Shown in pieces: positions 1-15,142 of a stretch of DNA of 36,605 nt. The translations under genes and the position numbers were made by a program. The DNA comes from a virus (taxonomy: Duplodnaviria; Heunggongvirae; Uroviricota; Caudoviricetes), in the IMG/VR virus record IMGVR_UViG_3300029219_000015, one strand, 5' to 3'. The stretch's first letter is position 1, and each line of letters opens with the position of its first letter. The notes beneath the pieces were generated by a model. That model was given only the letters and a program-made list of their open reading frames with translations. It searched no databases and had not been told where the DNA came from.

Positions 1-90
1 GGGGGAACTGAGAGAACTAAATTTCAATTTAAACAATGAATTAACTTCTTAGCGTACGTTTTCGTTCCATTGGCCCTCAAACCCCATTTA

Positions 91-177
91 GGGGAGTTAG
101 TCCGTAGAGGTAGCGGTGTAGACTGTAAATCTACTGTCATGGCGACTCGGGTGGTTCGACTCCATCACTCCCCACCA
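91..177 (+). tRNA. tRNA-Tyr (anticodon GTA), long variable arm, CCA encoded
   Basis: Acceptor stem GGGGAGT/ACTCCCC; anticodon stem GTAGA/TCTAC with loop CTGTAAA; about 15-nt variable arm; T-loop TTCGACT; 3' A-CCA. Confidence 0.8.
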
Positions 178-181
178 AATT

Positions 182-257
182 GCCGGTTTAGCTCAGTTGG
201 TAGAGCAGTCGCTTTGTAAGCGAATGGCCAGCGGTTCAAGTCCGTTAACCGGCACCA
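182..257 (+). tRNA. tRNA-Thr (anticodon TGT), CCA encoded
   Basis: Acceptor stem GCCGGTT/AACCGGC; D-arm GCTC-AGTTGGTA-GAGC; anticodon loop TTTGTAA; T-arm AGCGG-TTCAAGT-CCGTT; 3' A-CCA. Anticodon stem has one mismatch. Confidence 0.7.
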
Positions 258-577
258 ACACAACAGGTAAGAGCATTGGGCGAATCGGCGATACTGACCC
301 ACAAGGCCGTAAATCGATAGAGTCAGACCAGTGCTCTTACCGTTGTGAGGAAGTGCAGCTCTTTGAAGCAACCAGAAGATAAGCATCTGGCTTCACAACA
401 CAACGATAATATCATTACGGTTAATCGTCGTTCATGTGCACAATGACTGGTCGAAAGGTAGTGATCTTACCGTTGTGATGAATGCACAGGCTGATGTGCC
501 GCAACTACAGTAGTGCGCGCTTTGCGGGGCTTGCTACAACCCTGTGTCGGAGTTCAGTACCGACCATCACAATAGCT

Positions 578-664
578 GGAGAGTAGGGAGCATGGTGCTC
601 AAGCGGTCTTGAAAACCGTCCCATTGTGCAAACGATGATGGTTCGATTCCATTACTCTCCGCCA
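578..664 (+). tRNA. tRNA-Ser (anticodon TGA), long variable arm, CCA encoded
   Basis: Acceptor stem GGAGAGT/ACTCTCC; anticodon stem GCGGT/ACCGT with loop CTTGAAA; long variable arm; T-loop TTCGATT; discriminator G then CCA. Confidence 0.8.
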
Positions 665-666
665 GA

Positions 667-744
667 CACAGCGTTGAGCGGTTTGGCCTTTTAATCAACT
701 CGATTAAGACTCCGCTAACATAAACCAGACCGCTCAACGCTGTG
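667..744. repeat. Perfect 16-bp inverted repeat (CACAGCGTTGAGCGGT / ACCGCTCAACGCTGTG) around a 46-nt loop that itself contains TTAATC-AACTC-GATTAA
   Basis: Read directly from sequence immediately 3' of tRNA-Ser; possible processed stable RNA or structured element. Confidence 0.6.
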
Positions 745-823
745 ATAGACAATTACGGCAGACGTTCTTAACCATATAGCTTGCTAACATCCTAGCAACA
801 CTTTTTTAAGCGCAAAATCCAAA

Positions 824-843
824 GGGGCTTCGGCCCCTTTTTT
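824..843. terminator. Rho-independent terminator, usable in both directions
   Basis: GGGGC-TTCG-GCCCC followed by TTTTTT; an A-run precedes it on the + strand; sits between the tRNA cluster and the end of the minus-strand gene 845..1753. Confidence 0.75.
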
Positions 844-844
844 G

Positions 845-1753
845 TTAATGATTGCCTAGATATGATTTTAGTTCTTCTTTAATGATTAGTGAGTATTCTA
901 AAATATCACTTAGTAAAAATTTTGCTCTGTTAAAATACCCACCAAAAGAACCTAAAATTTCAGATGGTCTTTCTAAGAGCATCACAATATCATCTTCTTG
1001 CACTTTAGTAATGTAACTTCTAACAGCTCTTTCTCCAATAACTCTTTTCTTACCGTTTATTTCAGATTCATCTAAAACCTTATTTATAAATTTTTCTGTA
1101 TCATTGAATCGTCCACTATTGTGTACTATTGTATGTCTTAGTAGTTCAATTAGCTTGATGTTAAAGCGATAGTTTTTGCCAATCTTGTTGTTTGTTTCTA
1201 TCTCTTTGAAGCCAGGTATTTTATTTCTGAAAATTTTAGTTATTTTTTTCGATGGGTTACTTTTTGCTTTTAATAATCTGTAATAAACTTCCCTTTTCCC
1301 AATTTCATCATCTTCAACCTTACCAAAATCACTTGAGGACCATAAATCATTTCGAACACATACAGTATAGACATATATTGCCTCAATATAGTCTTCCAGT
1401 AACTCATAGGCTTCAGTAATAACCCACTGATATTGTTTATTTTTCAAAGTATTACACAATCTTATCTTTTCTTCTAAATCAATGGCGCTGTTACCTATCT
1501 CTAATGTTGAACCTGTATATGGGTTTGAACATAAATGGCGAGCTAACGTTGTGCCACACTTAATCTTAATAGTTTCATTAATATTAATAATAGTATCTGG
1601 ATTCTGTGCATACTCCACTTCTTTAAGAAGACGTTTTATATTTTTCTTTGTTGTATCATTTATCTGATTTAAATAATCAAAAAGTAAAGATATTTCTTCT
1701 CTAAATTCGTTGTATTTATTTTCAATCAAAGAATCAGACAACTTACCAATCAT
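845..1753 (-). CDS. Hypothetical protein on an AT-rich island; candidate HEPN/Abi-like defence protein (R-x4-H motif RHTIVH at about residues 206-211)
   Basis: 302-aa ORF with AGAGG 5 nt before the ATG; composition visibly far more AT-rich than flanks; K/E/I/N-rich; product assignment is inference from one short motif. Confidence 0.75.
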   Translation of the reverse strand: MIGKLSDSLIENKYNEFREEISLLFDYLNQINDTTKKNIKRLLKEVEYAQNPDTIININETIKIKCGTTLARHLCSNPYTGSTLEIGNSAIDLEEKIRLCNTLKNKQYQWVITEAYELLEDYIEAIYVYTVCVRNDLWSSSDFGKVEDDEIGKREVYYRLLKAKSNPSKKITKIFRNKIPGFKEIETNNKIGKNYRFNIKLIELLRHTIVHNSGRFNDTEKFINKVLDESEINGKKRVIGERAVRSYITKVQEDDIVMLLERPSEILGSFGGYFNRAKFLLSDILEYSLIIKEELKSYLGNH

Positions 1754-1926
1754 TAAAACCTCTATAAAATGTACATTTCAAGGCAATCCTTACTGTAATC
1801 TATTGTCGTAATCACTTCAATTGTTTACTAGTCAATCAATAAGTTACTACATACTTATCAAAAAAATCTGTTTGTAGTATAGTCTGATATGTTCGAATCA
1901 ATATTTATAAAGGTATTTGTTAAGTT

Positions 1927-2172
1927 ATGACGATCACTATCTACGGACGAGATAACTGCTCATACTGCAAACGTGCGGTCGAGCTGGCGAAGCAACTAAA
2001 GGGACATGGCAACGGTGATTATGAGTACATCGACATCACCACTGCCGGTATCGACAAGGAAAAACTAAGTGAAATTGTTGGTAAACCGGTAGAGACTATC
2101 CCCCAGGTGCTGATCGATGGCCAGCCGATTGGCGGATACACAGAACTGGCTGCATACGTCAGCACCCTCTGA
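1927..2172 (+). CDS. Glutaredoxin-like small redox protein (CSYC active site)
   Basis: 81 aa; N-terminal CxxC (CSYC) in a glutaredoxin-like context, C-terminal GGY motif; followed by a terminator. Confidence 0.8.
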   Translation: MTITIYGRDNCSYCKRAVELAKQLKGHGNGDYEYIDITTAGIDKEKLSEIVGKPVETIPQVLIDGQPIGGYTELAAYVSTL

Positions 2173-2178
2173 TTTTAA

Positions 2179-2199
2179 CGGCTCACAGGAGCCGTTTTT
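2179..2199 (+). terminator. Rho-independent terminator
   Basis: CGGCTC-ACAG-GAGCCG followed by TTTTT, 7 nt after the glutaredoxin stop. Confidence 0.7.
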
Positions 2200-2254
2200 A
2201 TTCCCACCAAACTCACTCCCATTTCCCTTAAAATTCAAAAAACAACGTCAAAAT

Positions 2255-2281
2255 GATTCCATACCTACTATGTATGGAATC
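2255..2281. promoter_or_regulatory. Perfect 10-bp inverted repeat GATTCCATAC-(7 nt)-GTATGGAATC; candidate recombinase core site or operator
   Basis: Read directly; about 100 bp upstream of the tyrosine-recombinase-like gene; geometry resembles tyrosine recombinase core sites. Confidence 0.35.
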
Positions 2282-2382
2282 ATTGCTGAAAATGAGTTAC
2301 TTTTACTCTTGATCCTATAAGAATCTATGCCTAATATACTGTTTACTTATACAGTGCATCGGCGTAACTCGGTGATTGTCAT

Positions 2383-3486
2383 ATGAAAAATAGCTTTGAC
2401 AGCGCACGCGCTGCGGAGAACACCTCAAAAGAGGCGATAGAGTATCTCGAAAGAGCATCTCAAATGCAGGCCGTTATGATCTCCCAGGTCAGCAATGACA
2501 TGAGATTCTCGGACGCATTCATGTTATTCACTCGCTTATCTCTGCTGATAACCAGACGTCGGCCAGAGATCGCTGTTCATTGTATTTTGATACATGTTTT
2601 GCCGCACATTGCCGATGTAAAAGTAAGTGACATTAATAGGTTCATGGTGAACCAACTGGTCAACCCACTAATACTGGATGGCAAAATTGTTATGGGCCGC
2701 CGCGTTTTCTCTCTGATGAAGCAGTTCCTTAGCTGGTGCGCCTTCCAGGGGATGATAGACGTGTCACCGTTAAACGATATGTCACTTAACAAAGTTGCCG
2801 GTGGCGCAAAGCCCACACCTCGCGAGCGGAAGCTGACCGACGCAGAGGTATGGGTGTTCTGGAATATATGGGACTACTTCAATGTGTGTGCTGGTACAAA
2901 ATGGGCGGCCAGGCTATGTCTTGTATCCGCAAGACGACCTGACGAAGTACTGCGGGCTAAAAAAAGTGAGTTCAATCTTAAGCGTGGGGTTTGGAATCAA
3001 GGCAAGAGGAACAAATCTGCCCGTGAGCATTCTCTGCCTTTAAGCTCATTAATGCGCACTTGTATTGAAGAGTTGTTCGAATATGGTAAAGACAGCCAGT
3101 GGCTCGTGCCTTCGAATAAAAAAATCGGGAAAGACCTTCCTATGTCTAAAGTGGCAATAGCCCAGGCATTACGTCGTATTCTGGAACGACCAGAACTGAT
3201 GGAGCTTGAGCCATTTACACCCCGAGATTTGCGCCGTACTGCGCGTAGTTACTTCCCAGCATTAGGCATAAGCCAGGAGGTATCACGTAAAATCATGAAC
3301 CACAGTCTTGAGGGGATAGATCGGGTCTACGACCGGCACGATTATATGGACGAGATGCGAGACGCCTTAGAAAGTTTCTCGACGTACATCGCATCAATCG
3401 TAGAGCAACCGGATTTAGACGAAATTGACCACAAATTTAAGGGAGATCGTCTATCAACAGAGCTTATTCGTGTAAATTTTTCATAG
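2383..3486 (+). CDS. Tyrosine recombinase/integrase-like protein, P4-integrase-type C-terminus, apparently lacking an N-terminal arm-binding domain
   Basis: C-terminal motifs ARRPDEV...HSLPLS...FTPRDLRRT...NHSLEGIDRVYDRHDY match the R/K/H-x-x-R/Y pattern of tyrosine recombinases; the box II position that I recall as His is Arg here. Start codon uncertain. Confidence 0.7.
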   Translation: MKNSFDSARAAENTSKEAIEYLERASQMQAVMISQVSNDMRFSDAFMLFTRLSLLITRRRPEIAVHCILIHVLPHIADVKVSDINRFMVNQLVNPLILDGKIVMGRRVFSLMKQFLSWCAFQGMIDVSPLNDMSLNKVAGGAKPTPRERKLTDAEVWVFWNIWDYFNVCAGTKWAARLCLVSARRPDEVLRAKKSEFNLKRGVWNQGKRNKSAREHSLPLSSLMRTCIEELFEYGKDSQWLVPSNKKIGKDLPMSKVAIAQALRRILERPELMELEPFTPRDLRRTARSYFPALGISQEVSRKIMNHSLEGIDRVYDRHDYMDEMRDALESFSTYIASIVEQPDLDEIDHKFKGDRLSTELIRVNFS

Positions 3487-3867
3487 AGACTTTATGGCCT
3501 CAACAACCTTTTGTGATGCGCCTTTCTCTTTACCGAATCGCTCGTTATATGCAGCAAGAACCTGTTTTTCGTCCTCGTTAAGAGGAGCAGTGCCTTCTTT
3601 GTATAAAAATGCTGCGAGTTCGGGTTGGCGTTCTTCCAGCACCATCATCATAAGACGACTTGGCTCAATGCCCAGTGCCAGCGCCAGCGGACGAACCTTA
3701 TCGATAGGCAAAGGAATTTTGCCGCTTTTAATTAAAGAAAGGTTGTTGGCGTTTTTATACCCAATTGTTTTGGCTATCTGGGCCTGGCTCATAGGTGAGG
3801 ATTCAATCAACCCTGCGATAAAAGCAGCGTAGCGACTTTCTATAAATTCAATCTTGTTATCAGACAT
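3481..3867 (-). CDS. Helix-turn-helix (XRE/Cro-CI-like) DNA-binding protein
   Basis: 128 aa; HTH-like segment SQAQIAKTIGYKNANNLSLIKSG; AAAGG 8 nt before the ATG; convergent with and overlapping the recombinase-like gene by 6 nt. Confidence 0.7.
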   Translation of the reverse strand: MSDNKIEFIESRYAAFIAGLIESSPMSQAQIAKTIGYKNANNLSLIKSGKIPLPIDKVRPLALALGIEPSRLMMMVLEERQPELAAFLYKEGTAPLNEDEKQVLAAYNERFGKEKGASQKVVEAIKSL

Positions 3868-4118
3868 GGTTACAACCTTTGCGCGTTCAATTCTCTCTGG
3901 TAAGTGCTTACCGATATTACATCAAAGGTTAGGGTTGTAAAGCTATTATCATTTTTTTCGATAGGCACTTAAAAGACCGGTTAAAGGCCATTGCACGGAG
4001 AAAAATTAGCCCAAAACAGGTAAGAAAATCAACTTGCATATGATATGAATGTATTCAGTATTGATACAAATTTTAGTAGTATTCCTTACCATAGTATAAG
4101 TTAGAATGGATTGATTGA

Positions 4119-4331
4119 ATGAACACCACTATTTCCAGCCTAATCGCTCTTGAGATCGGACACGTACAGAAATTAGCTGATGAGTGTGTAGCTGACATCC
4201 TCACCGATCTACCGAATGAGCAGATTCAGGTTGGTGTGAATGACACAACTGGCTTTATATTCGAACTTAACAACAAACGCTTCACGCTTCTCAATACCGG
4301 CTCCTGGTCTTTAGCCGTCAGAATCTGTTAA
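4119..4331 (+). CDS. Hypothetical small protein
   Basis: 70-aa ORF divergent from the HTH gene; weak RBS. Confidence 0.4.
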   Translation: MNTTISSLIALEIGHVQKLADECVADILTDLPNEQIQVGVNDTTGFIFELNNKRFTLLNTGSWSLAVRIC

Positions 4332-4429: not shown

Positions 4430-6538
4430 ATGTCTAAAAAACGTTCCATCAAAGAGGTTCAGGACTTCCGTGACAGTGTAAAACGAGTAGTCGCTCTCCT
4501 TTCAGGTAAAAACATCCCTGTTGCAGAACGAGGGGACGACGCTTATGTACGCTATAACGATGATGGAGAGCCAATTCTCGTAAACATCCCATCAATCCCG
4601 GATAACGCAACACCGGCATTGATGAATGCTGTGCGCGGATTTCTCGATCATGAGGTTGCTCACATTTTGTTTACCGATATTCGTGTGTCCAACAAAATGA
4701 GAGAAAAAGGACGCGTTCCTTCCTGGTCGCTATGGAATGCCTTAGAAGACGTGTTCATCGAGCGAAAAATGGGTCAGGTCTTTAACGGAACAAGACGTAA
4801 TCTGATGGCAACTCAGCGCCTTATAATCGAAAAAGTCTTTAAACCAAAGGCTTCAGAGGCTATTGCTTATTGTGGCAAAGATCAGCGCGCGCTTTTTCTA
4901 AACTTCTTTCTCTGTCCGGTTGTAAGAGCCTGGGATGGCCAAGCACCGTTCGTAGATTTCATGGATGAATATTGGCCTGTCATTGAGAAACCAATTTCAT
5001 TATTAAAAGAACATGGTATCGATGTGGCCGTGCGTAACATGTCTTGCACCGAGGATTGTGTAAAGGTGGCTGCGACCATAGCTAAGATCCTCAAAGACAC
5101 TGAAAGTGAAAGCAAAGGTAAGGAGTCAGCTCCGGGAAAAACTTCCGATCCTTCAGACGCTGACCAGACGGATGCCTCTGGAGAAAACAATGAAGACAAC
5201 GAAGATCATGAGACACCCTCAGCGTTAGATAATCACAAATCTATCAAATCAGAATCACACAGTAAGCACAAACATGATAATAACGACAGTGATGATTCAG
5301 ATAATTCTGAATCATCAGAAACAATATTCGATGATACAGAAAATGATAAAGAGGTATCAGATTCTGGTGCTTCTGATAACGCGGCGTCAGAATCATTTAC
5401 CACTGACCACGAAAAAAGAAAATCGACAGAAGACGGCTCTTCAGACATTCCAACTCCGTCAAAAATGAGTCTGGAAGAGGCTTTAGAGGAGTTGGATAGC
5501 ATGGAAGATGAAGTCGGAGGCATGACAGAAGATGCGCTATCCGAAACGATTAAAAGCGAGTTAACAGAAAGCTCGAAAAGCGAATACAGGCCATACAATC
5601 GCTCATACGACTTCATCGGCTCGATTGATCAGGCAGAAGCCCATATCAAACGGCTTATTAAAACATTCTCCGATATTGATTTAGGTGGATATCCAATCAG
5701 CCGTTATCGCATCGTTCCTGAAGGCAACCAACTCTTCGACAAATATATTGAAAAGCACCTTTCGTCAGGTGTTTCGTCGACGCTGGCAAAAGACCTGGAA
5801 CGTGCAATAGCAAGCAGAAACAGAGTTCAGTTTATACCTGGCCAGCGTCGGGGGCGCATTCATGGTTCAAGTATCTACAGATTAACAATGAATGATGATC
5901 GCGTGTTTCGTAAAAAAGAAGAATCTAAAGCCGTTAACGCCTGTGTTCAACAAGTGATTGATTTATCGGGTTCAATGAGTGGCGAAACGATAAAACTAGC
6001 TCTTGCAAGTGCATATACCATCGCCGATGCACTTGATCGAATAAATGTTCCCAACATTATCACCGGCTTCACTACATTTGGTAGTCATATGGCGGCAGGA
6101 GAACTTAAGGCTGTCAAGTATGAGTTCTCTCGCTTTGAATCTTTAATGCTACCTATCATCAAAAATTGGAATGAAAAGGTAAATTCTCGCGAAGTTCGCT
6201 CACGTATGGGGTGCGTAGGCTACACATTCCCACTTCTTAATAACGTGGATGGTGAAAGCATAGCCAGCCTTGCATCGTTATTTTCCGGTCGCATGGAGGA
6301 CAGGAAGATCATGCTTGTTCTGAGTGATGGCGCGCCGTGGGCTGTTGGGAGAGGTTTTGACGCTCATTTGCGTTCAGTTGCGAAGCAAATTGAAACGCAG
6401 ACTGATATTGATTTGATGGCAATTGGCATCATGACTGACGCACCGGAGAGATTTTACTCAAATCATGCCCTGGTAACGAGCGTTGATAGTCTTGGTTCAT
6501 CTGTAGTTACTGAACTATCTCGTATCATTTTAAAGTGA
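4430..6538 (+). CDS. CobT-like protein with C-terminal von Willebrand A (vWA) domain and long acidic S/D/E-rich linker
   Basis: 702 aa; AAAGGA RBS; MIDAS-like DLSGSMSG motif in the C-terminal third; roughly 160-aa acidic low-complexity region; HEVAH (HExxH-like) near the N-terminus; immediately followed by an AAA+ ATPase gene. Confidence 0.7.
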   Translation: MSKKRSIKEVQDFRDSVKRVVALLSGKNIPVAERGDDAYVRYNDDGEPILVNIPSIPDNATPALMNAVRGFLDHEVAHILFTDIRVSNKMREKGRVPSWSLWNALEDVFIERKMGQVFNGTRRNLMATQRLIIEKVFKPKASEAIAYCGKDQRALFLNFFLCPVVRAWDGQAPFVDFMDEYWPVIEKPISLLKEHGIDVAVRNMSCTEDCVKVAATIAKILKDTESESKGKESAPGKTSDPSDADQTDASGENNEDNEDHETPSALDNHKSIKSESHSKHKHDNNDSDDSDNSESSETIFDDTENDKEVSDSGASDNAASESFTTDHEKRKSTEDGSSDIPTPSKMSLEEALEELDSMEDEVGGMTEDALSETIKSELTESSKSEYRPYNRSYDFIGSIDQAEAHIKRLIKTFSDIDLGGYPISRYRIVPEGNQLFDKYIEKHLSSGVSSTLAKDLERAIASRNRVQFIPGQRRGRIHGSSIYRLTMNDDRVFRKKEESKAVNACVQQVIDLSGSMSGETIKLALASAYTIADALDRINVPNIITGFTTFGSHMAAGELKAVKYEFSRFESLMLPIIKNWNEKVNSREVRSRMGCVGYTFPLLNNVDGESIASLASLFSGRMEDRKIMLVLSDGAPWAVGRGFDAHLRSVAKQIETQTDIDLMAIGIMTDAPERFYSNHALVTSVDSLGSSVVTELSRIILK

Positions 6539-7869: not shown

Positions 7870-8049
7870 TCGTGCGTAAAGGATGTTTCGGCTCTCTTAT
7901 CGCTGCTTCTGAAACTGGTAAGGCTTGTCTGGTGTGTCCAGACAAGCCCGATTGTCACCAATCAGCAAAAGAAGTTGCGATTTCGATGCATGGGAAGTTC
8001 GTAGGCTTCCCCAATGACAAAATCAAAAAAACCAGAAAGGTAAAAACAC

Positions 8050-11000
8050 ATGAAGGCACTGATGGTTCGAACTGACTTCTCACTTGGGGAGTCGGCTCTA
8101 AAAGCAGAAAACGCGGTGAAGATTGCCAGAGAAGCTGGCTACACCGCTGTAATTTCAGCAGATAGCATGAATATTGCGAGCGTTATTCCACTACAACGTG
8201 CCGCTGGTGACGACATGGCGGTTATTTGTGGTGTGAAACTAAACATTGTTGATGATCCCACATACGAGCACCGGGCTAAACTTGCTAAAGAATCTATGAG
8301 ATGTATGGAATCATTAGAGCGGGGACGTAACTACTCGTTTACCGCTCTAATTAAAAATGAGCAAGGATATCGCGACATCTGCGAACTAATGACGGCGGCC
8401 AACACACGAGAACAGTTCTACTTTGTACCGCGTCTCTCGCTCGAACAGTTGGTTTCTACATATGCCAAAGGCAACATCATCCTGCTTACTTCCGACATCG
8501 GTAGCGTGTTCCAACGCAACGATTTTGCAAAAATCATAAGCACACTGATTACAGCGGGTGGAAAAGACAACTTCTATAGTGTGGTTTATCCGCACCCTAC
8601 CCCATTCTACGACCAGATTAACGTCCGGGCGATGAAAGTCGCCAGCGCATTGAAAATAGAGCCAGTGGCGTTCTATCCCGCTTATTACGAATCGATCGAC
8701 GATGCAGACATTAAAGACATTGCGCACATGGTTACGAACAACATCAAAATCGACCAGCCGCATCGTCTGCGTATCCCCCACCAGCGAGATAACGCCGTCA
8801 ATGGTCGCCGCCATCTCCTTGAGGCGCTTAAAGCCTTCTCCGTTCGCATGGATGTGCCGGTAACAGCTGCAATGGCCTCAACAACGCAGGATACCATTAT
8901 CGATGCCTGCACATGGCGCTGGCATGAATTGCCACCAGCACTGCCCAAGATGGCAGACGACGAACCTGCAACGCTGATGAAACTGGCTGTTGCAGGGCTG
9001 CGTAAACGTCTTACCACAAAAGAGTTTGGATACACACCACCTGCTTCTGAGAACAGGGTTTATGTTGAGCGGCTAAAGTACGAAATGGACACGCTGACTC
9101 GCCTGGGATTCTGTGGTTACTTCCTGATGGTACGCGATCTGATGAATCACAGCCGTGAAACTGGCATTCCTGTCGGGCCTGGTCGTGGTTCCTCTGCCGG
9201 TTCTCTGGTGGCGTGGTGCATAGGCATAACCAACGTCGACCCAATCCGTCACGGTCTTCTGTTTGAGCGTTTCATCAACCCTGAGCGTCTCGACTTGCCG
9301 GATGCGGACTTGGACTTCAGCCAGGCACGTCGCCATGAGGTGATCGAGTATCTGAATGAACGCTACGGCGAAGATTACGTTGCAGGCATTCCGAACTTCA
9401 CCTATCTGGGCGCGGCATCTGCGCTGCGTGACACTGCACGTATTTACGGTGTCGATGCTGCGGATATGGCGGTATCCAAAGAGTTCAAGAATATGGAGGA
9501 CGACAGCCTGTCTCTGGAAGAGCTGCGCGAGCAACTGGCCAGCCTGGACAAATACGCCACGAAAAACCCGGAAGCGTTCAAAGCGGCGTGTAAGCTGCAA
9601 AGCCTGATGCGTGGTTTTGGTCGTCACGCTGCGGGGATGATCGTCGCTGGCGTTCCATTAGTAGAGCGCACGCCCGTCGAGCTGCGTGGCAATGCTCGAT
9701 GTATTGCGTTCGATAAACGTTACTGCGAGGCGATGGGGCTGATTAAGTTGGACGTTCTCGGTCTGGCAACACTCGATCTTCTGGATAGCGCGAAACGCTA
9801 CATCAAAGAGAGTACCGGTGAAGACATCAATCTCGACGCTATCCCACTGGACGATCGCAAGGTTCTGGATGGGTTCGCTGCAGGGTACACGCAGGGCGTA
9901 TTCCAGCTGGAGTCCGGCCCCATGCGTAAGCTGCTTAAAGATCTGGGCGGTGGCATCGAGCCAATGAGTTTCAAAACCGTTGTCGCAACTACCGCCCTCT
10001 TCCGACCGGGACCGATTCAATCCGGCATGTTGGATGACTATGTTTCCGTTGCGAAAGGATTTATGACGCCTACATCACTACATCCTGTCTTGGATGAACT
10101 GACCTCTGAAACAAATGGAGTGATTCTCTATCAGGAACAAACGATGAACGCAACAAGGCTTCTTGCTGGTTTCACAATGGCCGAGGCGGATGGTGTGCGT
10201 TCAGCAATCGGTAAGAAGAACATGGAAAAGATGAGGAGCATGGGTGAGAAATTTGTCATTCAGGCTCAAGCTGGGTGGATCGACGTAGAGCTTGAAAATG
10301 GCGCAATACAACGGATTCATCGCGCAGAACATTTTAAATGCGAGGACGGTACTCTGAGGACAGTTGAAGAGGCGTTGGAGCATGGAGTGAAGCTGCCAAT
10401 GCCAGTTGTGCGCGTTACAACGTCACATCCAGGTCTGTCTGAGACGAAGGCAAAAGAGATATGGACTGCATTTGAGAAAAACGGAGCCTATCAGTTCAAT
10501 AAATCACACTCCGTTGCTTATTCTTTAATCAGTTATCAGTCTATGTGGCTAAAGACGCACTACCCTGCTGAGTTCTTCGCAGCTGCGCTCACCATTCTGG
10601 GCGAGGATAAGCATCAGGGGCTGGTGAAGGATGCGCTGACCTATGGCATTCGCGTATTGCCACCAGACGTTAATGTGTCATCTAACCGAATTGAGATCCG
10701 CACACTCGAAGACGGCAGTCAGGCACTGTATGCGCCATTCTCTGCTGTGAAAGGCTGTTCTGAAAATGGTTGTCAGGCAATTATGCGTGCGCGTGAGAAA
10801 GTTGGTGGCAAATTCGAGTCAGTGGCACAATTCGATGAAGCGGTCGAGAAGCGTGCATGTAACAGTCGTGTACGCGAGTCGCTTCATAAAGTAGGGGCTT
10901 TTGCGTCAATTGAGCCAGGCAGTCTGCCAGCAACTGATCCTGAACGACTGCGCGACCAGGCTGAGCTGATGGGCAATCTCATCATTGACGCTGTTAAAGC

Positions 11001-11597: not shown

Positions 11598-11871
11598 TAA
11601 AGAATTATGGCGCTTGTTGAGGAAGTCACTCCTCTTACGCACTTTGTTTTGCCATGCCGGCAGTTAGCTTCTGCCTTTGACTATTCATGCGGCAACCCCG
11701 CATTTCGCCACAATGGGCAATTCACTTTTATGGAATAAACTGGCCGTTGTGTCGATTTAATTAGCATGGCCTTACCATGCTAATTTATTCAACTTGTACA
11801 ATCCTACAAATCTATCCACTCAGGCTTACACCGTCTTCGTTATTGTAGAAATGAGGATCATCAGCGTTGAA

Positions 11872-15097: not shown

Positions 15098-15115
15098 TCC
15101 CATTACGTGACCAGT

Positions 15116-15142
15116 AAGGCGTCTACGGACGCCTTACTTTTT
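15116..15142 (+). terminator. Rho-independent terminator/attenuator after the SSB gene
   Basis: AAGGCGTC-TACG-GACGCCTT followed by a T-run; same stem family as the 18715 and 19854 terminators. Confidence 0.65.

What the first reader, a model, noticed from the sequence alone, without database searches (positions are those of the whole stretch)
2255..3867. P4-type tyrosine-recombinase-like gene with a variant box II, a perfect inverted repeat upstream and a convergent HTH gene
The 367-aa protein has the tyrosine recombinase C-terminal motifs including YDRHDY, but the box II position that I recall as His in P4-type integrases is Arg (RDLRRT), and the N-terminal arm-binding region looks absent. 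About 100 bp upstream is a perfect 10-bp inverted repeat with a 7-nt spacer (GATTCCATAC-ctactat-GTATGGAATC), the geometry of a recombinase core site. It may be an integrase for a tRNA-targeting island, a dimer-resolution recombinase for a plasmid state, or a decayed remnant.
Basis: partly seen in the sequence, partly recalled or inferred. Interest (0 to 1): 0.5.

Follow-up and report, generated by a model that had tools for sequence, protein, structure and literature searches.

The report
Lox-like recombinase module of a phage-plasmid
The "integrase" of this plasmid-like prophage, together with the perfect palindrome just upstream of it, looks like a self-contained Cre/lox-style recombination unit that most likely keeps the plasmid in single copies rather than inserting it into the chromosome; the pair has not been described, but it belongs to a familiar kind of system.

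Summary
The window is an SSU5/pHCM2-type phage-plasmid. ORF 2383-3486 is an intact 367-aa tyrosine recombinase of P4-like lineage. It lacks the arm-binding domain and has Arg at the first box II His. That Arg is invariant across the whole clade, so it is not decay. The repeat is really 13-7-13 (2252-2284). About 250 related loci each carry exactly one such palindrome upstream of the gene, always with a 7-nt spacer. The arms change with the recombinase clade (TGATTCCATAC versus TGACTCCAGAC). The spacer varies freely and is found exactly inverted, once between two otherwise near-identical genomes. The gene-plus-palindrome pair also sits alone on Pantoea, Rahnella and Erwinia megaplasmids. In 5,426 complete E. 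coli genomes all 255 copies are on plasmids and none on a chromosome. The best reading is a lox-like site with its recombinase, used for multimer resolution. The palindrome overlaps the gene's own promoter. In this clade a conserved LexA box adds SOS control. tRNA-island integration and a decayed remnant are rejected. The convergent HTH gene is the putative lysogeny repressor, not part of the recombination module. Oriented lone copies of the arm, one inside dnaE, remain unexplained. No activity was tested.

The parts
2229..2234 (+). TAAAAT, a -10-like hexamer 19 nt left of the 11-nt arm core (family consensus TAgATT). Its function is unknown; it could be a promoter reading through the palindrome or an accessory-factor site.
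   Evidence: Its position is conserved among 99 non-redundant relatives although the rest of the left flank is unrelated.
2252..2264 (.). Left arm of the palindrome, AATGATTCCATAC; proposed recombinase-binding element.
   Evidence: The arm core TGATTCCATAC is invariant in about 180 relatives with Int at least 56% identical, and is replaced on both arms by TGACTCCAGAC in the 45-52% clade.
2265..2271 (.). 7-nt asymmetric AT-rich spacer, CTACTAT; proposed strand-exchange region.
   Evidence: The length is always 7 nt. The sequence varies by lineage, and five exact reverse-complement pairs are seen. These include an exact flip between L033 and PhiR41_1, which are otherwise identical at 798 of 800 flanking bases.
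2272..2284 (.). Right arm, GTATGGAATCATT. It overlaps the -35 region of the ancestral int promoter.
2298..2303 (+). TACTTT, a -10-like hexamer 15 nt after the palindrome core (family consensus TAnnnT); the proposed ancestral int promoter, which would be occluded when the right arm is occupied.
   Evidence: It lies at a fixed distance in all clades, megaplasmids included. Assigning it as a promoter is an inference.
2309..2337 (+). Second promoter-like element, TTGATC-17 nt-TAATAT.
   Evidence: Read directly from the sequence; conserved in the SSU5-like clade. It scores 8 of 12 and so falls below the scanner's threshold.
2337..2356 (.). LexA (SOS) box TACTGTTTACTTATACAGTG, 16 of 20 to the consensus, abutting the -10.
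   Evidence: It is the only CTGT-N8-ACAG in the window. It stays 55-57 nt after the palindrome in about 70 relatives, with CTGT and ACAG fixed and the interior varying. Whole-genome scans of PhiR41_1 and Cyrano find strong boxes only here and at the umuD/S24-like gene.
2383..3486 (+). int: a 367-aa tyrosine recombinase with a core-binding and a catalytic domain and no arm-binding domain. Active-site residues are R185, K211, R281 (at the His-I position), R284, H307 and Y316.
2989..2999 (-). Arm-like sequence inside int, degenerate here (TTGATTCCAAAC) but intact as TTGATTCCATACATC in other clades; it encodes VWNQG.
   Evidence: Its significance is uncertain.
3481..3867 (-). Convergent 128-aa HTH gene, the putative lysogeny repressor (CYRAN_45 homologue). 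It is a neighbour, not part of the recombination module.
   Evidence: It is expressed in the Cyrano lysogen and is called the putative repressor in PMC9928086. Synteny and the 3' overlap with int are conserved only in phage-plasmids.
8301..8315 (-). Lone oriented copy of the arm, ATGATTCCATACATC on the minus strand, inside dnaE (codons CMESL).
   Evidence: It is an exact 15-mer. Its synonymous positions are frozen in nine diverged relatives while neighbouring codons vary, and the peptide is not conserved in distant DnaE proteins.

Best explanation
The palindrome at 2252-2284 and the adjacent gene form a two-part, self-contained site-specific recombination module of the Cre/loxP type. Two recombinase monomers bind the two 11-13-bp arms. 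Cleavage and strand exchange take place across the 7-bp spacer. Recombination between the two directly repeated sites of a plasmid dimer returns the ~108-kb plasmid-prophage to monomers. Because the right arm overlaps the -35 region of the gene's ancestral promoter, occupancy of the site should also repress int. In the SSU5-like clade a second promoter is gated by LexA, so recombinase supply should rise during the SOS response, when recombination and prophage induction both increase. Shown here: the anatomy, the one-site-per-replicon rule, the arm/recombinase co-variation, the free and invertible spacer, the exclusively plasmid location, and the conservation of the catalytic residues and of the LexA box. 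Inferred: binding, cleavage positions, multimer resolution as the physiological role, autorepression, and LexA binding.
For: (1) The element is an SSU5-type phage-plasmid. Int is the only site-specific recombinase annotated in the fully re-annotated relative Cyrano, which is kept at about 5.5 copies per cell and encodes its own RecA, UvsY and UvsW homologues. (2) Every intact family member has exactly one palindrome 45-290 nt upstream of the gene, always with a 7-nt spacer: 69 of 71 viral loci, 63 of 64 genomic loci, and 113 further viral contigs with one site each. (3) The arms are invariant within a clade although 91 distinct left flanks were seen. They switch symmetrically at two positions between clades (TGAtTCCAtAC to TGAcTCCAgAC). 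A few sites have hybrid, asymmetric arms (L100, L126, L130, L135). That pattern fits readout of each half-site by a protein and does not fit a base-paired hairpin. (4) The spacer is AT-rich and lineage-specific. It occurs as five exact reverse-complement pairs, and once as an exact flip between genomes identical at 798 of 800 flanking bases. So orientation relative to the flanks is not constrained, as for a simple site without accessory arms. (5) Int plus the palindrome travel without any of the window's neighbouring phage genes on Pantoea, Rahnella, Erwinia and Ewingella megaplasmids. (6) All 255 copies in 5,426 complete E. coli genomes are plasmid-borne, and 927 of 933 PLSDB copies are full length. 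(7) The catalytic residues are conserved. The fold is a core-binding plus catalytic domain like lambda Int, Tn1549 Int and Xer, without an arm-binding domain. (8) Breaks in similarity to relatives fall exactly at the left edge of the palindrome.
Against: No recombination, binding or cleavage was tested. No natural dimer, cointegrate or deletion product bounded by two sites was examined. A palindrome that overlaps a promoter would look the same if it were only an operator. The spacer flips could come from template switching at a palindrome without any recombinase. SOS control of a resolvase has, to my knowledge, no well-known precedent. Lone oriented copies of the arm up to 6 kb away are not predicted by a pure lox-like model. 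A crude search found no dif- or cer-like site in Cyrano, but use of host XerCD is not excluded. The effect of Arg at the His-I position on recombination chemistry is untested.
Confidence: 0.6

Rival explanations
1. The palindrome is only a transcriptional operator. It would be bound by Int acting as an autoregulator, or by another dimeric protein, and the recombinase would act on some other site or not at all.
For: The right arm overlaps the -35 region of a conserved -10-like element 15 nt downstream, and another conserved -10-like hexamer lies 19 nt to the left. Dimeric-regulator operators also show conserved arms with a free centre.
Against: All the catalytic residues, including the Tyr nucleophile, are conserved over 43-100% identity, so catalysis is under selection, and no other candidate site accompanies the gene. 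The 11-13-bp arms and fixed 7-bp AT-rich spacer match recombinase core sites. The module persists where no neighbouring regulator is conserved. Autoregulation and recombination at one site are compatible, so this is a true rival only in its exclusive form.
Confidence: 0.12
2. It is an SOS trigger of the lysis-lysogeny switch; this reading does not exclude the best explanation. LexA-derepressed transcription of int runs head-on into the overlapping repressor (HTH) gene and lowers repressor expression. Int bound at the palindrome and the lone half-sites might also remodel the immunity and replication region.
For: Cyrano is induced 39-fold by ciprofloxacin. The 128-aa repressor candidate shows no match to a self-cleaving peptidase domain. 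Strong LexA boxes in two complete relatives lie only at int and at a umuD/S24-like gene. The int and HTH 3' ends overlap, or lie at most 9 nt apart with no terminator, in all phage-plasmid clades. A terminator-like hairpin on the int strand lies inside the HTH gene at 3707-3723.
Against: The 3' overlap is also present in clades that lack the LexA box. Megaplasmid members have neither the HTH gene nor the LexA box. No transcript data were examined. The identity of the repressor is itself only an annotation plus expression data.
Confidence: 0.15
3. It is a tyrosine-recombinase-like relaxase or nickase with its oriT or nick site upstream of the gene, as for MobK of pIGRK, MpsA of SGI1 and TcpM. 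It would serve mobilisation or the start of rolling-circle replication.
For: There is precedent for recombinase-like relaxases whose oriT lies just upstream of the gene and overlaps its promoter (PMC8152469, PMC9299015). Known-relaxase typing of 933 host plasmids non-mobilizable, and such typing may well miss a relaxase of this type. The SOS link would suit replication initiation.
Against: Those oriTs contain several imperfect repeats, not one perfectly symmetric two-arm site with a fixed 7-bp spacer. The protein here keeps a full core-binding plus catalytic architecture and the full recombination residue set. Exact spacer inversion implies events at both arm borders.
Confidence: 0.07
4. It is a true integrase (attP plus int) that inserts the element into a chromosomal or tRNA target.
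For: The lineage is P4-like (remote homologues carry PF13356; weak NCBIfam PRK09692 hit). tRNA genes lie 1.6 kb upstream. Public annotation says 'integrase'.
Against: None of the 255 E. coli copies is chromosomal. The palindrome is intact in essentially all of about 250 loci and is never split. There is no arm-binding domain. The spacer differs between close relatives and flips, which does not fit matching a conserved attB. The tRNAs are part of the phage's own cluster and share no sequence with the arms.
Confidence: 0.04
5. The repeat is a structural hairpin (an RNA 5'-UTR element or a terminator of the upstream gene), or the gene is a decaying remnant.
For: A -10-like hexamer to the left could place the palindrome in a transcript. 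Loop inversion is typical of hairpins.
Against: The glutaredoxin gene already has its own terminator at 2177-2196, and no T-run follows the palindrome. The arm sequence is conserved base for base without free compensatory change, and the asymmetric hybrid arms would mispair. The gene is intact in 99% of 933 plasmids.
Confidence: 0.02

Closest known systems
Cre/loxP of phage-plasmid P1 (and engineered relatives such as Dre/rox and Vika/vox)
   Same: A plasmid-prophage carries one tyrosine recombinase without an arm-binding domain. There is one simple site per genome, next to the gene: two 13-bp inverted binding elements around a short asymmetric AT-rich spacer. The presumed role is monomerisation of the plasmid; Cre's role is stated in PMC7969092.
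   Different: There is no detectable sequence relationship to Cre, and the structural match is weaker than to lambda Int (Foldseek E about 0.02 against 4e-6). The spacer is 7 bp, not 8. Arg replaces the first box II His. The site overlaps the gene's promoter. The gene carries a LexA box. Extra lone half-sites exist. Activity is untested.
P4 / CP4-57 / SXT-type integrases (PF13356 arm-binding domain plus PF22022 plus PF00589; NCBIfam PRK09692)
   Same: These are the closest sequence relatives outside the clade (25-34% identity). They share the central domain (PF22022, weak) and the C-terminal motifs xDLRRT and YDRHDY.
   Different: The N-terminal arm-binding domain is missing and replaced by about 60 helical residues. 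His-I is Arg. PRK09692 scores 33.9 bits against a cut-off of 434. The site is a symmetric palindrome, not an attP with arm sites. No chromosomal or tRNA integration is seen.
Integron integrase IntI with attI
   Same: A tyrosine recombinase gene has a LexA box in its promoter (LexA control of intI is from my own knowledge). Its primary site lies immediately upstream of the gene, and a highly variable cargo region lies on the far side of the site.
   Different: No attC-like cassette boundaries were found. The lone half-sites do not share the spacer of the palindrome, so they are not cassette junctions. The site is a perfect palindrome. No relationship specific to IntI was seen: in the fold search the integron-integrase structure ranked below lambda Int, Tn1549 Int and Xer.
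Rci/sfx shufflon recombinase of IncI plasmids (from my own knowledge)
   Same: The geometry is a 7-bp spacer with a conserved 12-bp arm, and there are sites with only one conserved arm.
   Different: No inversion between lone sites and the palindrome is seen in any relative. The lone sites lie in or at the start of essential genes and do not share spacers.
Tyrosine-recombinase-like relaxases MobK, MpsA and TcpM
   Same: A recombinase-fold protein is encoded just downstream of its DNA target, and the target overlaps the gene's promoter.
   Different: Their oriTs hold several imperfect repeats, whereas the target here is a single symmetric palindrome; the protein here also keeps a complete core-binding plus catalytic fold and the full catalytic residue set.

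Membership tests
Tyrosine recombinase superfamily (PF00589) | Profile match above the curated threshold | tested here: met
   PF00589 at 40.6 bits against a cut-off of 27.1, E=3e-10; phrog_1 integrase at 5e-47.
Tyrosine recombinase superfamily (PF00589) | Catalytic set Arg-I, Lys, His-I, Arg-II, His/Trp-II and the Tyr nucleophile | tested here: inconclusive
   R185, K211, R284, H307 and Y316 are present and conserved. His-I is Arg (R281), invariant in 18 clade members of 43-100% identity. A basic residue at this position is chemically plausible; type IB topoisomerases carry Lys there (from my own knowledge). Its competence for recombination was not tested.
Tyrosine recombinase superfamily (PF00589) | Two-domain fold: core-binding plus catalytic | tested here: met
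   AlphaFold model with mean pLDDT 82. The top Foldseek hits are lambda Int bound to its core site, Tn1549 Int and Xer proteins, E 4e-6 to 1e-3.
P4/CP4-57/SXT-type integrases | N-terminal arm-type DNA-binding domain (PF13356/DUF4102) | tested here: not met
   No PF13356 hit in the query or in the 113 clade members listed, whereas the remote homologues P0114-P0120 have it.
P4/CP4-57/SXT-type integrases | Curated family model (NCBIfam PRK09692) | tested here: not met
   33.9 bits against a cut-off of 434.
P4/CP4-57/SXT-type integrases | Integration into a chromosomal (often tRNA) attB, leaving split attL and attR | tested here: not met
   0 chromosomal and 255 plasmid places in 5,426 complete E. 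coli genomes. The palindrome is intact in about 250 loci.
Cre/loxP-type simple recombination modules of plasmids and phage-plasmids | Recombinase without an arm-binding domain, and no requirement for neighbouring accessory genes | tested here: met
   Domain content. The gene plus site occur alone on megaplasmids.
Cre/loxP-type simple recombination modules of plasmids and phage-plasmids | A single site per replicon, made of two inverted 11-14-bp binding elements around a 6-8-bp asymmetric spacer | tested here: met
   The site is 13-7-13. There is one full site in the whole genomes of PhiR41_1 and Cyrano and one per contig in 113 viral contigs.
Cre/loxP-type simple recombination modules of plasmids and phage-plasmids | Binding elements specific to the cognate recombinase | tested here: met
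   The arms switch from TGATTCCATAC to TGACTCCAGAC along with the recombinase clade. This is co-variation only; binding was not measured.
Cre/loxP-type simple recombination modules of plasmids and phage-plasmids | Recombination between two sites; resolution of dimers | not testable with these tools
   The only indirect sign is the exact spacer inversion between near-identical genomes.
Cre/loxP-type simple recombination modules of plasmids and phage-plasmids | Homology to Cre itself | tested here: not met
   No PDB sequence hit at E<0.01. The Cre structures rank 35th and below in the fold search. The module may work like Cre/lox but is not a Cre-family member.
LexA (SOS) regulon promoter | CTGT-N8-ACAG palindrome close to the consensus, overlapping the promoter | tested here: met
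   TACTGTTTACTTATACAGTG at 2337-2356, 16 of 20 to the consensus, directly after TAATAT.
LexA (SOS) regulon promoter | Conservation of the half-sites with a free interior across relatives | tested here: met
   About 70 relatives keep CTGT and ACAG at the same offset, with eight or more different interiors. The same scan finds the expected box at the umuD/S24-like gene.
LexA (SOS) regulon promoter | LexA binding and SOS induction of the gene | not testable with these tools
   The only related fact is that the relative Cyrano is induced by ciprofloxacin.
Rci/sfx-type shufflon | Several inverted sites sharing a spacer, with natural inversion variants between them | tested here: not met
   The lone half-sites do not share spacers across clades, and no relative shows an inverted segment bounded by them.

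The most novel reading that the evidence does not exclude
The recombinase gene doubles as the SOS input of the phage-plasmid's lysis-lysogeny switch. LexA release fires a promoter whose transcript runs antisense into the 3'-overlapping repressor gene. The burst of Int then occupies the palindrome and a set of oriented lone half-sites that converge on it from both sides: two upstream on the + strand, and one in int and one in dnaE on the - strand. This would reorganise or nick the immunity and replication region. In that case a domesticated integrase would be a regulatory or architectural DNA-binding factor as well as a resolvase.
Probability: 0.12. Interest if true: 0.75.

Novelty: new member of a known kind. 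Interest (0 to 1): 0.45.

Why it matters
This clade of phage-plasmids includes S. Typhi pHCM2, Y. pestis pMT1 and hundreds of Klebsiella, E. coli and Enterobacter plasmids (933 PLSDB records). Reviews of the field state that phage-plasmids typically lack integrases, yet these carry a universally annotated 'integrase' with no assigned job. Assigning it a defined 33-bp target and a plasmid-maintenance role explains why it is a persistent gene. It predicts a stability determinant that could be targeted. It also offers two natural, probably orthogonal recombinase/site pairs (TGATTCCATAC and TGACTCCAGAC arms, with many natural spacers) as candidate genome-engineering tools. The module shows an arm-type integrase lineage that appears to have been simplified into a Cre-like enzyme, with Arg in place of a 'catalytic' His. 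The LexA box and the overlap with the repressor gene give a testable handle on how SOS induces these elements.

Tried and rejected
(1) tRNA-linked att sites. The three tRNAs (91-664) belong to the phage's own cluster and share nothing with the arms. No chromosomal copies exist. (2) An integron-like cassette array. The + strand lone half-sites left of the palindrome looked like cassette junctions. Their 'spacers' all begin ATC and never match the spacer of the palindrome, and - strand copies lie in int and dnaE. Rejected. (3) Shufflon-type inversion between lone sites. No inverted variants were found, and the A-to-B distance is constant at about 1.0 kb. Rejected. (4) A large inversion to explain the flipped spacer in PhiR41_1. 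Both flanks are collinear, and L033 shows the same flanks with the other spacer orientation. The flip is local. (5) The HTH protein as the binder of the palindrome. Megaplasmids keep the palindrome without the HTH gene. (6) A correlation between the int/HTH overlap and the LexA box. The overlap is present in clades without the box, so there is no correlation. (7) Known RNA families around the upstream lone sites: only tRNAs. (8) Defence-system or Pfam identity for the variable left-flank genes (the 302-aa ORF at 845-1753 and CYRAN_43): no hits. (9) A sequence match to solved structures: none. (10) A literature search for the site sequence and for a described function of the SSU5-group integrase: nothing relevant. 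(11) A crude search for dif- or cer-like Xer sites in Cyrano: none within 7 mismatches.
Full report
**Context.** The window is part of an SSU5/pHCM2-type phage-plasmid. The region 1800-4300 is 92-98% identical to the ~108-kb Escherichia phages Cyrano (pLF82), PhiR41_1 and CMS-2020a, and about 74% identical to Klebsiella phage-plasmids. The gene order is tRNAs, glutaredoxin, int, HTH, a small ORF, CobT-like, CobS-like, DnaE. This order is the one annotated in those relatives.

- ORF 2383-3486 encodes 367 aa and matches Pfam Phage_integrase above threshold. It has a weak central-domain hit and no arm-binding domain.
- I aligned it with clade members of 43-87% identity and with remote P4-type integrases. 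The active-site positions are R185, K211, R281, R284, H307 and Y316.
- R281 sits where arm-domain P4-type integrases have His (HDLRRT). It is invariant in all 18 clade members aligned, and it also occurs in one arm-domain integrase (P0120). It is therefore a fixed family trait and not decay.
- The nucleophile is the first Tyr of YDRHDY.
- An AlphaFold model (mean pLDDT 82) has a helical N-terminus followed by core-binding and catalytic domains. Its best structural matches are lambda Int bound to its core site, Tn1549 Int and Xer proteins; Cre ranks lower. No solved structure is detectable by sequence.
- The repeat is longer than reported: AATGATTCCATAC-CTACTAT-GTATGGAATCATT, at 2252-2284. It is the longest perfect short-spacer inverted repeat in the window, and none of 200 simulated sequences reached 13-nt arms.
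- The HTH ORF (3481-3867, minus strand) overlaps the end of int by 6 nt.

**The palindrome is tied to the recombinase.**
- I collected 71 viral loci, 64 genomic loci from other species and 113 further viral contigs found with the site pattern alone.
- Every intact family member carries exactly one perfect or near-perfect palindrome 45-290 nt upstream of the gene, always with a 7-nt spacer.
- Wherever the fetched DNA reaches far enough, every palindrome has the gene beside it.
- The whole genomes of PhiR41_1 and Cyrano contain one full site each.
- Members with Int at least 56% identical to the query (Escherichia, Salmonella, Klebsiella, Kluyvera, Yersinia, Chimaeribacter) share the arm core TGATTCCATAC. 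This holds although I counted 91 different left flanks among 129 loci.
- In the 45-52% clade (Pantoea, Rahnella, Erwinia, Ewingella, Xenorhabdus, Photorhabdus, Morganella) both arms read TGACTCCAGAC instead.
- A few sites have hybrid arms that are not symmetric (L100, L126, L130, L135). Conservation base by base, a clade-linked switch, and tolerance of asymmetry are what protein readout of two half-sites predicts. A base-paired hairpin does not predict them.

**The spacer behaves like a strand-exchange region.**
- It is AT-rich and fixed at 7 nt, but its sequence is lineage-specific. Examples are CTACTAT, CTATTAA, TTGTAAG, TTGGTAG, TCCTTAG, TTATATA and GTAGTTA.
- Five spacers occur in both orientations relative to int as exact reverse complements: CTACTAT/ATAGTAG, CTATTAA/TTAATAG, CTGTTAA/TTAACAG, TCTATAG/CTATAGA and TTATATA/TATATAA.
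- The clearest case is L033 against PhiR41_1. There are 0 mismatches in the 400 nt to the left and 2 in the 400 nt to the right, yet the spacer is precisely inverted. Three point mutations that happen to produce the exact reverse complement, against 0.25% background divergence, are not credible. The 7 nt between the arms, or the whole symmetric site, physically flipped.
- Two routes could do this. One is recombinase-mediated exchange between wrongly aligned sister sites. The other is template switching at the palindrome. I cannot tell them apart.
- Either way, the orientation of the site relative to its flanks is unconstrained. That argues for a simple site like loxP or FRT. It argues against an attP with arm sites or a res/cer-type site with one-sided accessory sequences.

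**It is a plasmid module, not an integration module.**
- In 5,426 complete E. coli genomes the int region occurs in 252 genomes at 255 places. All are on plasmids and none on a chromosome.
- PLSDB holds 933 plasmids with a family member, 927 of them full length. They include Klebsiella (348), Escherichia (229), Enterobacter (92), Pantoea (74), Yersinia (63) and Salmonella (49).
- The synteny int-HTH-CobT-CobS-DnaE is kept only in phage-plasmids. On Pantoea, Rahnella, Erwinia and Ewingella megaplasmids only Int and its palindrome are conserved, among unrelated metabolic genes.
- In the carefully re-annotated Cyrano genome, Int is the only site-specific recombinase; the annotated 'RuvC resolvase' is a Holliday-junction enzyme. 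Cyrano is kept at about 5.5 copies per cell and encodes RecA-, UvsY- and UvsW-like recombination proteins, so dimers should form readily.
- The published overview of phage-plasmids lists tyrosine recombinases among the persistent genes of the SSU5 supergroup and notes that phage-plasmids may use recombinases to resolve dimers. It assigns no site or function to this one.
- I found no description of the site sequence in the searchable literature.

**Regulation.**
- A -10-like hexamer (TAnnnT) lies at a fixed 15 nt after the palindrome in all clades. The right arm therefore covers the -35 region of that putative promoter. A second conserved -10-like hexamer (TAgATT; TAAAAT at 2229-2234 here) lies 19 nt to the left. 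Autorepression by site occupancy is a reasonable inference but is not shown.
- The SSU5-like clade has an additional promoter-like element (TTGATC-17-TAATAT, 2309-2337). It is followed directly by TACTGTTTACTTATACAGTG (2337-2356), a 16-of-20 match to the LexA box consensus and the only CTGT-N8-ACAG in the window.
- About 70 relatives keep CTGT and ACAG at the same offset while the interior varies. Megaplasmid and Xenorhabdus-type members lack the box.
- Whole-genome scans of PhiR41_1 and Cyrano find strong boxes at only two places: int and the umuD/S24-like gene. The second is the expected positive control.
- Cyrano is induced 39-fold by ciprofloxacin. Its HTH gene (CYRAN_45) is expressed in the lysogen and was taken as the lysogeny repressor.
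- The int and HTH genes overlap tail to tail, or lie at most 9 nt apart, in every phage-plasmid clade examined. SOS-driven int transcription must therefore enter the repressor gene in antisense. This suggests, but does not show, a second role in induction.

**Most likely mechanism (confidence about 0.6).** Int dimers bind the two arms. Two occupied sites in a plasmid dimer synapse. Cleavage by Y316 at the arm/spacer borders and exchange across the 7-bp spacer resolve the dimer. The same binding throttles int transcription, and LexA adds SOS control in this clade. Everything beyond the sequence anatomy and the comparative patterns is inference.

**Rivals.**
- Operator only (0.12).
- SOS-switch role, not exclusive of the best explanation (0.15).
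- Recombinase-like relaxase or nickase in the manner of MobK, MpsA and TcpM, whose oriTs also lie upstream of the gene (0.07).
- True chromosomal integrase (0.04).
- Hairpin or decayed remnant (0.02).

**What remains unexplained.**
- The SSU5-like clade carries lone, oriented copies of the arm extended by ATC (ATGATTCCATACATC).
- Two lie on the + strand, about 2-4 kb left of the palindrome and outside this window. One forms the start codon and first codons of a small ORF (CYRAN_38, MIPYI...). The other is about 200 nt upstream of the tRNA cluster.
- One lies on the - strand inside int. It encodes VWNQG, is degenerate in this window at 2989-2999, and is intact in other clades.
- One lies on the - strand inside dnaE, at 8301-8315 in this window.
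- In Cyrano and PhiR41_1 these are the only copies in 108 kb.
- The dnaE copy keeps its synonymous positions frozen in nine diverged relatives while neighbouring codons vary. The peptide it encodes is not conserved in distant DnaE proteins. The constraint therefore appears to act on the DNA.
- Sites left of the palindrome point right and sites right of it point left.
- They are not cassette junctions, because their spacers never match that of the palindrome. They are not shufflon sites, because no inversion variants exist.
- They are absent from the TGACTCCAGAC clade.
- A single recombinase monomer would be expected to contact about this much DNA (from my knowledge of Cre). Int is therefore the obvious candidate binder, but the purpose of the sites is unknown.

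**Verdict.** The finding is real. The system is an uncharacterised member of a known kind: a simple tyrosine recombinase with a lox-like site on a plasmid-prophage. It has some unusual features: descent from arm-type integrases, Arg at the His-I position, a site overlapping its own promoter, SOS control, and lone half-sites. It is moderately interesting, and mainly so as a widespread maintenance function of clinically common plasmids and as a possible new recombinase/site tool pair.

Noticed in passing
window 8301-8315 (-); L001 2965-2979 (+) and 3977-3991 (+); L076 (PhiR41_1) record position 80620-80634 (+): Lone oriented copies of the palindrome arm extended by ATC (ATGATTCCATACATC) flank the palindrome and converge on it. 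There are two on the + strand to the left, and one in int and one in dnaE on the - strand to the right. They are the only copies in two complete 108-kb genomes. The dnaE copy has frozen synonymous sites. Function unknown.
   Followed up: partly
The only other strong box in complete relatives is at the umuD/S24-like gene.
   Followed up: yes
window 2989-2999 (-); L093, L096 and L097 at +582 from the int start: The codons for the conserved Int motif VW(N/R)QG resemble the arm of the same clade: GTATGGAATCA in SSU5-like members and GTCTGGAGGCA in Rahnella. This may be coincidence or a relic; it was not resolved.
   Followed up: partly
window 1-2251; L001 5431-5985; L002 567-4599: The DNA immediately left of the palindrome is a cargo hot spot, and similarity to relatives breaks exactly at the palindrome edge. 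Cyrano has an extra, very highly expressed gene there (CYRAN_43, 723-fold above background in PMC9928086). PhiR41_1 and L033 carry a chaperone-usher fimbrial operon with an AraC regulator and an IS remnant. The window has none of these.
   Followed up: partly
window 845-1753 (-): An AT-rich 302-aa ORF between the tRNAs and the glutaredoxin gene matches only phrog_35492 (unknown function). It has no Pfam, NCBIfam or PADLOC hit and looks like an accessory gene acquired by horizontal transfer.
   Followed up: partly
window 3481-3486 and the equivalent positions in L072, L087, L099, L119 and L123: The tail-to-tail overlap, or a gap of at most 9 nt, between int and the HTH repressor-like gene is conserved from Escherichia to Xenorhabdus and Morganella phage-plasmids. 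This leaves no room for a terminator between them. A terminator-like hairpin on the int strand lies inside the HTH gene (3707-3723).
   Followed up: partly
window 3899-3912 and 3958-3976: GGTAAG-TG-CTTACC and a related GGCACTTA element lie in the divergent region upstream of the HTH gene. They are candidate operators of the repressor.
   Followed up: no
L001 3405-4183 (outside the window, upstream of the tRNA cluster): An ~780-nt non-coding stretch has long internal inverted repeats (for example AACGTTGAGGCC...GGCCTCAACGTT). It has no significant Rfam match other than the tRNAs that follow it.
   Followed up: no
window 91-664 versus L001 4184-4431: The tRNA cluster differs between close relatives: Tyr, Thr, Ser in the window and Asn, Thr, Ser in Cyrano.
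   Followed up: no
window 5290-5317, 7922-7948, 11759-11785, 15113-15138: Other perfect inverted repeats with 11-12-nt arms and 4-5-nt loops. None shares sequence with the int palindrome. The window has more of them than simulations give (about 0.3 hits expected in simulations).
   Followed up: no
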